Positions 730 through 2,034 of a DNA stretch of 64,000 bases are shown in pieces; position 1 is the first letter of the stretch, and each line of letters starts with the position of its first letter. Source of the DNA: an uncultured Alphaproteobacteria bacterium (GTDB lineage: Bacteria > Pseudomonadota > Alphaproteobacteria > Rhizobiales > Xanthobacteraceae); contig CAVRMY010000055.1 in NCBI GenBank assembly GCA_963721935.1, positions 21,151 to 85,150 on the forward strand, in the 5' to 3' direction. Under the pieces are notes generated by a model. That model searched no databases and was not told the DNA's origin. It worked only from the letters and a program-made list of their open reading frames with translations. Both the position numbers and the translations under genes were made by a program.

Positions 730-884
730 CAACTGTGTAGAAGTAGACCCGCGGTCGGCCAGGGCTCAAGGCTGGCGCTACGCGCCCCCGCCTTCGGCGG
801 CTGACGGCCTTGACCCCGTCCGCTCGCCGGTCTGTTGGCTTTGCAAGCGCTCGGTCGCGAACCGAGCGCCACATGGCGCGCTCG

Positions 885-1847
885 TTAGCTTACCGCGTAG
901 CGACGGGCATCCCATTTCTCACGGCGGGCAATCATGGTGTTGAGGATGACGATGAGCTTACGCATGCAGGCGACGAGCGCAACCTTCGGCTCCTTGCCTT
1001 TGGCAATCAGGCGACGATAGAAGGCCTTGAGCACCGGATTGTGCCGCGTCGCGGCGCCGAGGCAAGCCATGTAGAAGAGATTGCGCACCCTGCGGCGTCC
1101 GCCCTTGATCTGGCGCTCGCCGCGTCGTTTGCCGCTATCGTCGTCGTAAGGCGCAACGCCGAGCAAGGCGGCGATTGCCGCGTTGCTCACCTGTCCCAGT
1201 TCCGGCATCCCTGCGATCAGGCTGGCGGAAGTGATCTCGGCGAGTTCCGGCACGCTCTCGATGATCTCGGCGAGCTCGGCAAAGTGCGCGGTCGCTTTGA
1301 TCATGGCAGCGATCGCTGCCTCCAGCCCGGCAAGTTCGCGGGCGATTTGCTTGAGCAGGCGCGCCTGCATTTTTCGCACCGGTTCCGGCGCCGGATGCTC
1401 CTCCCGGTTTTGCAATGTGGTCTGCAGGTCGAGCAGGGCGCAACGCGCATTGACGATCTGCGCCAGCTTCTCGCGCCTCGCATCGTGGGCCTGGCCGGAG
1501 ACCGCGGCGAAAGTCTCGGCGAACCAGGCGATCATCTCCGCATCGATGGTATCGTTCTTGGCCAATCGACCGGCCGAGCGGGCAAAGTTGCGCACCCGCT
1601 TCGGATCGACGATGCGGACCTCCATGCCGGCCTCGCGCAAGGCCCGCGCCCAGTTCCGCTCGTAGCCGCCCGAAGCCTCCATCACGGCCGCGGTCACCTT
1701 GTGCTTGCGCAACCAGGTGATCAGCTTGCGCCGGCCCTCCGCGGTGCTCGGGAACATCTCTCGCTGAGACAACGAACGAATGCATGCATCCATCTTGTCC
1801 TTTGCCACATCAATGCCGACGACAACGAGATCGTTTTGTGCCATCAT
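885..1847 (-). CDS. IS110 family transposase/recombinase (320 aa)
   Basis: [16 protein letters not shown] and KNDTIDA give the RuvC-like DEDD tetrad; [10 protein letters not shown] has the C-terminal catalytic Ser. SD AGGAAGGGAG (1860-1851) precedes ATG at 1847, so the longer ORF from 2039 is unlikely. Confidence 0.95.
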
Positions 1848-1850
1848 CCA

Positions 1851-2003
1851 CTCCCTTCCTTGCTCGGTCCGGGCTAAAAGCCCATGCAACTGTTCGGGTT
1901 GAGGAAGACACCGGATCTGTCCCACGCTTCCCGTCAGGCTCTTAAGCCTTTGAGCACGAACGGGCTCAGATCCAGCGACGGGCGGTCGGTCAAACCGCCC
2001 GTT
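1851..2003 (-). ncRNA. Predicted bridge RNA (target-binding and donor-binding loops); ends approximate
   Basis: 5' hairpin GGGCGG/CCGCCC; target loop closed by GGATCTG/CAGATCC with inner AGGCT/AGCCT hairpin and guides TTCGTGCTC (1960-1952) and CGGGAAG (1933-1927); donor loop with ACAGTTGC (1893-1886), GGGCT/AGCCC hairpin and CAAG (1862-1859). Confidence 0.85.
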
Positions 2004-2034
2004 TGCGCATTCTGGCAGATTTTGCAGACACAAG

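What the first reader, a model, noticed from the sequence alone, without database searches (positions are those of the whole stretch)
730..2034. IS110 element with a readable bridge RNA whose guides match its own insertion site and circle junction
Seen directly (minus strand): the empty target reconstructs as TTCGTGCT-CT-TCCCG and the circle junction (donor) as ACAGTTG-CT-TGTGT. The 5' non-coding end has TTCGTGCTC (1960-1952), a 9/9 match to the left target, and CGGGAAG (1933-1927), a 7/7 match to the opposite strand of the right target. These sit either side of an AGGCT/AGCCT hairpin inside a GGATCTG/CAGATCC stem. A second loop has ACAGTTGC (1893-1886), an 8/8 match to the left donor, and CAAG (1862-1859), matching the opposite donor strand, around a GGGCT/AGCCC hairpin. 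Established: IS110 recombinases such as IS621 use this bispecific RNA with a CT core; from memory the IS621 donor is ACAGTATCTTGTAT, close to this one. Inference: this is a natural RNA-programmed recombinase with a different target specificity in an alphaproteobacterium. The mechanism class is known; I cannot tell whether this member is described.
Basis: partly seen in the sequence, partly recalled or inferred. Interest (0 to 1): 0.92.

Follow-up and report, generated by a model that had tools for sequence, protein, structure and literature searches.

The report
IS110 element with bridge RNA
This is an intact 1,305-bp IS110-family insertion sequence whose 5' non-coding end encodes a bridge RNA matching its own insertion site and its own joined ends; the reading is correct, but the mechanism and this clade of elements were already described in 2024, so it is an ordinary new member of a known kind.

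Summary
The boundaries were tested directly. Two metagenome contigs carry the same locus (99.4-100% identical flanks) without window 730-2031, leaving TTCGTGCT-CT-TCCCG as predicted. The 320-aa protein is a full-length IS110 recombinase (PF01548 + PF02371; NCBIfam "IS110 family RNA-guided transposase"; IS621 E = 4e-33) with D13/E57/D99/D102 and S238-G239 in place. The 187-nt left end has a 5' hairpin and two stem-loops with internal loops. Loop 1 carries the guides to the target (9/9 and 7/7). Loop 2 carries the guides to the donor junction ACAGTTG-CT-TGTGT (8/8, plus a split AC..G-CAAG as in IS621). Across 46 distinct relatives, guides match their own flanks at 13.7 of 16 positions against 10.5 when permuted (0 of 10,000). 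Ten near-identical copies with the same guides all sit in CT-TCC sites, one of them outside the usual repeat. Transcription is only weakly supported, no circle junction was seen, and no activity was tested. Novelty is low: the supplementary data of Durrant et al. 2024 already hold near-identical donor, target and ncRNA sequences of this clade. Verdict: real, correctly interpreted, a new member of a known kind.

The parts
730..2034 (-). Whole IS110-group element, 1,305 bp counting one copy of the CT core
   Evidence: Ends conserved in 70+ relatives (CT|TGTGTC at the left, ACAGTTG|CT at the right). Exactly this stretch is missing in empty alleles L087 and L085 and in metagenome joints 726->2032.
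2035..2042 (-). Left target (LT) TTCGTGCT, host DNA
   Evidence: Contiguous with CT-TCCCG in the empty alleles.
2033..2034 (-). Core CT at the left junction
   Evidence: CT is kept at both junctions in all relatives.
2027..2032 (-). Right donor (RD) TGTGTC, first bases of the left end
   Evidence: Invariant CTTGTGT in 56 aligned left ends.
2009..2014 (-). CAGAAT, -10-like hexamer. With TTG of the right end plus CTT it would give TTGCTT-N17-CAGAAT across the circle junction (inferred promoter).
   Evidence: Nearly invariant in alignment A1. No consensus promoter in the integrated copy. Junction promoter described for IS621. Not tested here.
1978..2002 (-). 5' stem-loop of the bridge RNA (ACGGGCGGT / ACCGCCCGT)
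   Evidence: MFE fold. 99.4% of cells paired in 56 sequences, with one compensatory pair UA->CG in 6 sequences.
1911..1975 (-). Target-binding stem-loop: outer stem CTGGATCTG..CCC / GGG..CAGATCCGG, internal loop, inner hairpin AGGCT-TAAG-AGCCT (1949-1936)
1952..1960 (-). Left target guide (LTG) TTCGTGCTC, same sense as LT plus core C, so it pairs with the bottom strand
   Evidence: 9/9 match. Covaries with left flanks across relatives.
1927..1933 (-). Right target guide (RTG) CGGGAAG, complementary to top-strand CT-TCCCG
   Evidence: 7/7 match. The A variant is found only with T-variant targets.
1925..1926 (-). Candidate handshake guide of the target loop (CG). The C would pair with donor G7 after strand exchange.
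   Evidence: Position taken by analogy with IS621 A81-U82. The C is invariant, as is donor G7. Inference.
1855..1907 (-). Donor-binding stem-loop: outer stem CTTCCT / AGGAAG, internal loop, inner hairpin GGGCT-TTT-AGCCC (1883-1871)
   Evidence: 99.7% and 94.3% of cells paired.
1886..1893 (-). Left donor guide (LDG) ACAGTTGC, same sense as the right-end terminus ACAGTTG plus core C
   Evidence: 8/8 match. Conserved in almost all relatives, as is the right-end terminus.
1859..1868 (-). Right donor guide (RDG), split: AC (1868-1867) / CGA unpaired / G (1863, G.T) / CAAG (1862-1859), complementary to CT-TGTGT
   Evidence: Same layout as IS621 A157-U158 / U159-U160 / G161 / C162-G165. AC..G-CAAG is kept in all subgroups.
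885..1847 (-). Recombinase gene, 320 aa, with D13, E57, D99, D102 and S238-G239
   Evidence: PF01548 + PF02371. NF033542, 186 bits against a cutoff of 140. IS621 8wt6 E = 4e-33 and ISCro4 9t56 E = 5e-29 over the full length. Residue positions.
730..884 (-). Right non-coding end (155 bp), ending in left donor ACAGTTG (736-730)
723..729 (-). Core CT (729-728) plus right target TCCCG (727-723), host DNA, at the foot of hairpin CCCGG-GGA-CCGGG (726-714)

Best explanation
Window 730-2034 (minus strand) is an intact, probably recently mobile IS110-group insertion sequence. It encodes a DEDD/Ser recombinase and, between the left core and the start codon, a bridge RNA of about 155 nt. By analogy with IS621, the excised circle joins the right end to the left end. 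That junction is both the donor site ACAGTTG-CT-TGTGT and a rebuilt promoter (TTG from the right end, CAGAAT in the left end) that transcribes the RNA from about position 2002. The first internal loop of the RNA pairs with the target: LTG TTCGTGCTC with the bottom strand, RTG CGGGAAG with the top strand. The second loop pairs with the donor junction: LDG ACAGTTGC, and RDG AC..G-CAAG. A recombinase tetramer then exchanges strands at the CT core, which inserts the element without duplication beyond the shared core. Shown here: the anatomy, the exact insertion site, the guide matches, and the guide/target covariation. Inferred from the family: transcription from the junction, RNA-protein binding, and the chemistry.
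For: Protein: both Pfam domains, NCBIfam 'IS110 family RNA-guided transposase' above its cutoff, a full-length match to IS621 and ISCro4 structures, and the catalytic residues in place. Boundaries: empty alleles of the same locus, L087 and L085, and metagenome joints. RNA: MFE -76 kcal/mol, z = -2.7; 93.9% of cells paired in 56 sequences against 28-49% when the partners are slid. Guides: 9/9, 7/7, 8/8 and a split 2+1+4, with a joint chance of about 3e-8. [quoted passage not shown] Covariation: 46 distinct elements match their own flanks at 13.7 of 16 positions against 10.5 +/- 0.4 permuted, 0 of 10,000. Examples are CGGGAAG/CTTCCCG, CGGGGAG/CTCCCCG, CCGGGAG/CTCCCGG, CGAGGAG/CTCCTCG, CAAGGAG/CTCCTTG, GGGAGAG/CTCTCCC, and LTG AACGCCCC with flank AACGCCC-CT. 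Same-guide copies: ten elements 99.8-99.9% identical to the window copy, in at least five genomic contexts, all lie in CT-TCC sites. One of them, L091, lies outside the repeat at a site that resembles the others only in the guide-matched core. Differences from IS621 are compensatory. Donor positions 6, 7 and 13 differ. The LDG (UAU->UUG), the RDG (AU->AC) and the handshake position (A->C) differ in step. Near-identical RNAs are rows of the published bridge-RNA alignment.
Against: No direct evidence that this copy is transcribed from a junction promoter. The junction hexamers are weak by the E. coli consensus (7 of 12), and no circle junction was seen in 9 runs. Metatranscriptome contigs cover the RNA region more deeply than the coding region, but they come from mixed relatives, carry no strand information and may include DNA; one crosses the left boundary. 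The stems barely vary in this narrow clade, so the fold rests on conservation and register, not covariation. The LTG stops at core C and faces core T with an A. In the S58/L044 subgroup the RTG matches only CTCT. Rfam has no matching family. No activity was tested.
Confidence: 0.93

Rival explanations
1. The element is an IS110 transposon, but target choice is made by the protein (or by the hairpin in the repeat). The left-end strings resemble the flanks only because these elements always sit in one repeat family.
For: Most insertions lie in one composite intergenic repeat, at the foot of a hairpin. A target stem-loop is reported as an extra determinant for ISPpu10. In the S58 subgroup the right target is poorly matched.
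Against: Guides and flanks change together, base by base, within and between repeat variants. rA is never opposite a C-variant target, while rG tolerates T. L091 is inserted outside the repeat at a guide-matched core. The right guide is complementary and the left guide is same-sense, which a shared-ancestry artefact would not produce. RNA dependence was shown in vitro for IS621.
Confidence: 0.04
2. The copy is a fixed, inactive relic whose guide matches are frozen history.
For: No circle junction was found. Excision by IS621 is reported as inefficient.
Against: The reading frame and catalytic residues are intact. Presence/absence polymorphism occurs at one locus with 99.4-100% identical flanks. 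Copies 99.8-99.9% identical occur in at least five contexts and in many soil and freshwater metagenomes.
Confidence: 0.1
3. The left-end structure is mainly a translational or transcriptional regulator of the recombinase gene (its 3' stem covers the Shine-Dalgarno region AGGAAGGGAG), not a guide.
For: The 3' strand of the outer stem of the donor loop overlaps the ribosome-binding site, 8-18 nt before the ATG.
Against: This does not explain the four guide matches or their covariation. The two roles are compatible rather than exclusive.
Confidence: 0.03

Closest known systems
IS621 (E. coli) bridge recombinase and bridge RNA (Durrant et al. 2024, PMC11208160; Hiraizumi et al. 2024, PMC11208158)
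   Same: Same protein architecture and catalytic residues, full-length alignment E = 4e-33. RNA in the left end, with a 5' hairpin, a target loop and a donor loop. CT core. LTG 9 nt and LDG 8 nt ending at core C. Split RDG ending G-CAAG. Donor identical at 11 of 14 positions (ACAGTAT-CT-TGTAT against ACAGTTG-CT-TGTGT).
   Different: Roughly one third of aligned residues are identical by eye in the alignment. RTG is 7 nt here against 4 nt in IS621. Three unpaired bases in the RDG against two. Different target (TTCGTGCT-CT-TCCCG). High-GC soil host. Nothing was tested experimentally here.
Unnamed Bradyrhizobium-type IS110 elements in the covariation data set of Durrant et al. 2024 (supplementary files 10, 11, 16, 17)
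   Same: Donor junction CTTCAACACAGTTGCTTGTGTCTGCAAAATC. Targets GCTTACTTCGTGCTCTCCCCGGAGAACGGCT and GTTTCCTTCGCGCTCTCCCCGGTGACCGGGC. ncRNA rows nearly identical to window 2002-1850.
   Different: The window copy has RTG CGGGAAG and the T-variant target TTCGTGCTCTTCCCGG, which was not found in the held parts of those files. Those sequences are anonymous data points, not a described element.
ISPpu9 / ISPpu10 of Pseudomonas putida (PMC12288879; bioRxiv 10.64898/2026.03.19.712850)
   Same: IS110-group elements that insert into repeated intergenic palindromic sequences. A target-side stem-loop lies next to the guide-matched core.
   Different: Different host, repeat and guides. Whether the hairpin at 726-714 matters here is untested.
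IS1111-group elements (seekRNA / bridge RNA in the right end)
   Same: Same recombinase family and the same RNA-guided logic.
   Different: In that group the RNA lies in the right end and the subterminal inverted repeats are 7-17 bp. Here the RNA is in the left end and the inverted repeat at the ends is short (ACACA..TGTGT).

Membership tests
IS110 family, IS110 group (insertion sequence) | [quoted passage not shown] | tested here: met
   (E = 1.6e-20 and 1.9e-15). (NF033542, 186 bits against a cutoff of 140). (IS621 E = 4e-33). D13/E57/D99/D102 and S238-G239.
IS110 family, IS110 group (insertion sequence) | Site-specific insertion with a short shared core at both junctions, no long terminal inverted repeats and no target duplication beyond the core | tested here: met
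   Empty alleles L087 and L085 differ from the filled locus by exactly 1,305 bp with CT(T) shared. Same joint.
IS110 family, IS110 group (insertion sequence) | Long left non-coding end carrying the ncRNA (the right end in IS1111) | tested here: met
   Left end 187 bp with the structured RNA, right end 155 bp. The margin between the two ends is smaller than typical.
IS110 family, IS110 group (insertion sequence) | Circular intermediate whose right-end/left-end junction rebuilds a promoter | tested here: inconclusive
   TTGCTT-N17-CAGAAT would form across the junction and CAGAAT is conserved. No 'goes back' joint was found in 9 runs.
Bridge RNA (IS621 type) | [quoted passage not shown] | tested here: met
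   (93.9% of cells paired against 28-49% slid). Stem covariation is minimal.
Bridge RNA (IS621 type) | [quoted passage not shown] | tested here: met
   9/9 and 7/7 against an empty site confirmed independently. Rule taken.
Bridge RNA (IS621 type) | Loop 2: the same scheme applied to the element's own joined ends | tested here: met
   LDG 8/8; RDG AC/CGA/G/CAAG, parallel to IS621.
Bridge RNA (IS621 type) | Guides covary with targets across relatives | tested here: met
   (0 of 10,000 permutations). (ten same-guide copies, all in CT-TCC sites).
Bridge RNA (IS621 type) | The RNA is expressed | tested here: inconclusive
   Metatranscriptome contigs over 1837-1992 are deeper than over the coding region in X26 and X27, but they are mixed relatives, unstranded, and may include DNA.
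Bridge RNA (IS621 type) | The RNA binds the recombinase and is required for, and reprograms, recombination | not testable with these tools
   Needs biochemistry or a plasmid assay.
Rfam RNA families | Match at the gathering score | tested here: not met
   Nothing matched. No family in the Rfam 15 copy searched matched at any listed threshold, and I could not check whether Rfam holds a bridge-RNA family. This therefore says little.

The most novel reading that the evidence does not exclude
This clade is a natural reprogramming series. Sublineages with single-base guide changes sit in correspondingly changed target variants. The tolerance is asymmetric in the way wobble pairing predicts: guide G is tolerated opposite target T, but guide A is never found opposite target C. 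A sister lineage has been retargeted about 180 bp away within the same composite intergenic repeat and pairs on the right side through only 4 nt. It could serve as a ready-made data set on guide tolerance, and as a source of bridge recombinases adapted to high-GC Alphaproteobacteria.
Probability: 0.5. Interest if true: 0.4.

Novelty: new member of a known kind. Interest (0 to 1): 0.25.

Why it matters
It shows that a bridge RNA can be read correctly from raw sequence. It also adds a well-documented natural example, with filled and empty alleles of one locus, several same-guide copies, and a graded series of guide/target variants. This could be useful to people engineering bridge recombinases for GC-rich soil bacteria. 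It does not change what is known about the mechanism.

Tried and rejected
- Rfam at E <= 10 on the element, and at gathering score on the whole window: no relevant family.
- A second copy of the element or an uninterrupted target in the window or in the 80 loci: none.
- Exact look-up of the window's recombinase: not on record. A variant differing by 1 aa (P0136) was found and used instead.
- Plasmid collection search for a named relative: only generic 'IS110 family transposase' labels, best match 71% identity in a Bradyrhizobium plasmid.
- Literature search for a named Bradyrhizobium IS110 element: nothing specific.
- Consensus sigma-70 scan of the integrated copy: no promoter.
- Circle junction in 5 RNA, 3 DNA and 1 untyped run: not seen.
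- Stem covariation: the clade is too uniform to give any.
- RNAalifold also proposed an AAC/GTT helix inside the left donor guide and a long-range 7-9/194-196 helix. I rejected both as artefacts of invariant columns.
- One bioRxiv paper on half-match excision could not be fetched.

Full report
**Observation**

- Left junction: TTCGTGCT (2042-2035), CT (2034-2033), TGTGT (2032-2028).
- Right junction: ACAGTTG (736-730), CT (729-728), TCCCG (727-723).
- Inside the left end: TTCGTGCTC (1960-1952), CGGGAAG (1933-1927), ACAGTTGC (1893-1886) and CAAG (1862-1859).
- These lie within the stems GGATCTG/CAGATCC, AGGCT/AGCCT and GGGCT/AGCCC.

In shuffles of the left end the three longer strings occur with frequencies 5e-4, 0.023 and 2.6e-3, a product of about 3e-8. 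The window holds one copy of the element.

**The gene**

The coding sequence runs 1847-885 and encodes 320 aa. It has PF01548 and PF02371. It scores 186 bits against NCBIfam NF033542, 'IS110 family RNA-guided transposase', whose cutoff is 140. It aligns end to end with the solved IS621 (E = 4e-33) and ISCro4 (E = 5e-29) recombinases.

The residues matching IS621 D11, E60, D102, D105 and S241-G242 are D13, E57, D99, D102 and S238-G239. For the serine I shifted HMMER's gap so that DSG aligns with ESG. That placement is my reading, not a tool output.

**Boundaries and empty site**

I fetched 80 relatives at 62-89% protein identity, mostly from Bradyrhizobium and uncultured Alphaproteobacteria. 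All intact ones begin CT|TGTGTC and end ACAGTTG|CT, and they are 1,290-1,320 bp long.

The decisive test came from two look-ups.

- A look-up of the neighbouring histidine kinase gave contigs of the same locus.
- A scan for the 64-base reconstructed empty site gave one metagenome contig.

BLAST against the window shows that L087 aligns to 6188-2032 at 99.4% and then directly to 729-271 at 99.8%. L085 aligns to 8111-2032 and then to 729-621 at 100%. In each case 3 bases (CTT) are shared between the two alignments. L081-L083 carry the element at the same place. The locus is therefore polymorphic for a 1,305-bp insertion, and the empty site reads TTCGTGCT-CT-TCCCG as predicted.

Contigs from public runs show the same joint, 726->2032. 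At higher depth they also show the variant TTCGTGCTCTCCCCG from other copies of the repeat.

**The RNA**

The 187-nt left end folds at -76 kcal/mol, z = -2.7. I aligned 56 distinct left ends. The consensus has a 5' hairpin and two stem-loops with internal loops.

For the structure I wrote down from the window sequence, 93.9% of cells pair, against 28-49% when the partners are slid. The stems are almost invariant. There is one compensatory pair in the hairpin and one variable pair in the target stem. The fold is therefore supported by conservation and register, not by covariation.

**Guides**

The layout fits the published rule. [quoted passage not shown] The 3' side pairs with the top strand over 4-7 nt. 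The core is included in the pairing.

The donor side parallels IS621 in detail.

- IS621's LDG covers donor positions 1-8, and its RDG is A157-U158 / two flipped U / G161 (G.T) / C162-G165.
- Here the LDG is ACAGUUGC and the RDG is AC / CGA / G / CAAG.

The donors differ at positions 6, 7 and 13. The guides differ in step: UAU->UUG in the LDG, AU->AC in the RDG. The base after the RTG, which is the handshake position, is A in IS621 (pairing with donor T7) and C here (pairing with donor G7).

One difference from the ideal remains. The LTG ends at core C and has an A opposite core T.

**Covariation with targets**

I read the guides in register from alignment A1 and compared them with the flanks. 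46 distinct elements match their own flanks at 13.7 of 16 positions. Permuted pairings give 10.5 +/- 0.4, with a maximum of 12.3, and 0 of 10,000 reach the observed value.

Individual cases are clearer than the statistic.

| Guide | Matching flank |
|---|---|
| RTG CGGGAAG | CTTCCCG |
| RTG CGGGGAG | CTCCCCG |
| RTG CCGGGAG | CTCCCGG |
| RTG CGAGGAG | CTCCTCG |
| RTG CAAGGAG | CTCCTTG |
| RTG GGGAGAG | CTCTCCC |
| LTG AACGCCCC or AGCGCCCC | AACGCCC-CT or AGCGCCC-CT (same genome, B. oligotrophicum S58; most copies match their own variant) |

The mismatches are asymmetric in the direction wobble pairing predicts. Guide G is found opposite target T. Guide A is never found opposite target C.

The relatives are not independent samples, so the permutation count is not a probability.

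**Copies with the same guides**

A protein one residue different from the window's is recorded on many contigs. Ten places were fetched. Their elements are 99.8-99.9% identical to the window copy and carry the same LTG and RTG. All ten right flanks begin CT-TCC(C/T)GG, and the left flanks are TTCG(T/A/C)GCT. They represent at least five genomic contexts.

One of them, L091, is not in the usual repeat. Its flanks resemble the others only over the guide-matched core (GTTCGCGCT-CT / CTTCCTGG).

Some of these metagenome contigs may be chimeric across repeats, because two contigs of the window's own locus show different left flanks.

**The target**

Most insertions lie in a composite intergenic repeat of several hundred bases. 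It is shared across these genomes but occurs only once in this window. The site is at the foot of the hairpin CCCGG-GGA-CCGGG.

The same repeat holds a second site about 180 nt downstream, AACGCCC-CT-CT. This site is used by the sister lineage (L044-47, L057-65), whose RTG matches only CTCT. The window has an unoccupied site of this second kind at 558-544.

**Expression**

The integrated copy has no consensus promoter. Joining the ends would place TTG of the right end 17 nt upstream of the conserved CAGAAT, giving TTGCTT-N17-CAGAAT. The start would fall near 2002, where the 5' hairpin begins. This is an inference from the IS621 model.

In metatranscriptomes, contigs over 1837-1992 reach higher depth than the coding region (X27 up to 69 against under 9; X26 15 against about 3). 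Many of them diverge at 1928, where relatives have different target loops. These are contigs from mixed relatives without strand information, and one crosses the left boundary. I count this as weak support only. No circle junction was seen.

**What is known**

The mechanism was established for IS621 (PMC11208160, PMC11208158) and extended since (PMC13626964 and others). Durrant et al. predicted bridge RNAs in 85.7% of IS110-group elements in ISfinder.

Their supplementary files already contain this clade:

- donor junctions such as CTTCAACACAGTTGCTTGTGTCTGCAAAATC;
- targets such as GCTTACTTCGTGCTCTCCCCGGAGAACGGCT;
- ncRNA rows nearly identical to the window's.

The exact T-variant target of the window was not found there, but some of those files are truncated in the held copy. 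No named ISfinder element or dedicated paper turned up.

**Verdict**

The element is a new, uncharacterised member of a known and already catalogued kind. The interest is modest. It is a clean natural example with filled and empty alleles and a graded guide/target series, not a new mechanism.

Noticed in passing
window 2240-2328; also 7379-7464, 21727-21808, 21837-21916: A repeat of about 88 bp, 76-86% alike between copies, containing the GCAATGACG motif. It has very high contig depth in soil and freshwater metagenomes and metatranscriptomes: 50-150 times its neighbours in DNA runs and more in RNA runs.
   Followed up: partly
window about 271-729 plus 2035-2330 (the two halves of one interrupted repeat): The element sits in a composite intergenic repeat of several hundred bases, conserved across Bradyrhizobium-like genomes. 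The repeat holds long inverted segments (AGGGAATGCCGG ... CCGGCATTCCCT). Its nature (MITE, RNA gene or REP-like cluster) was not resolved.
   Followed up: partly
window 544-558 (minus strand): ATACGCCC-CT-CTCGG is an unoccupied site of the kind used by the sister lineage (LTG AACGCCCC; L044-47, L057-65). It lies about 180 nt from the occupied site, in the same repeat.
   Followed up: partly
L091:1270-2650: A 99.9% identical copy is inserted outside the usual repeat, between a DEAD-helicase-like gene and a phage-integrase-like gene. The site matches the guides only over the core, with two wobble positions.
   Followed up: partly
L057-L065, L073, L077 (Bradyrhizobium oligotrophicum S58 strain E20): At least 11 copies occur in one genome, with two LTG variants (AACGCCCC and AGCGCCCC). 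Most sit in the matching target variant. The right targets vary beyond CTCT.
   Followed up: partly
L001, L012, L021, L049: Short contigs holding little more than the element are binned in MAGs labelled Sulfotelmatobacter, Burkholderiaceae, Gaiellaceae and Pseudomonas. This is more likely mis-binning of collapsed repeat contigs than wide horizontal spread.
   Followed up: no
window 810-1877 (+): A 355-aa open frame lies antisense to the recombinase gene. This is the usual high-GC artefact, and nothing suggests a real gene.
   Followed up: no
L092 and L094 against window 2035-2066: Contigs of the window's own locus carry different left-flank sequences next to the element (TTCGAGCT and TTCGTGCT versions). 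This points to strain variation or to chimeric assembly across the repeat.
   Followed up: no
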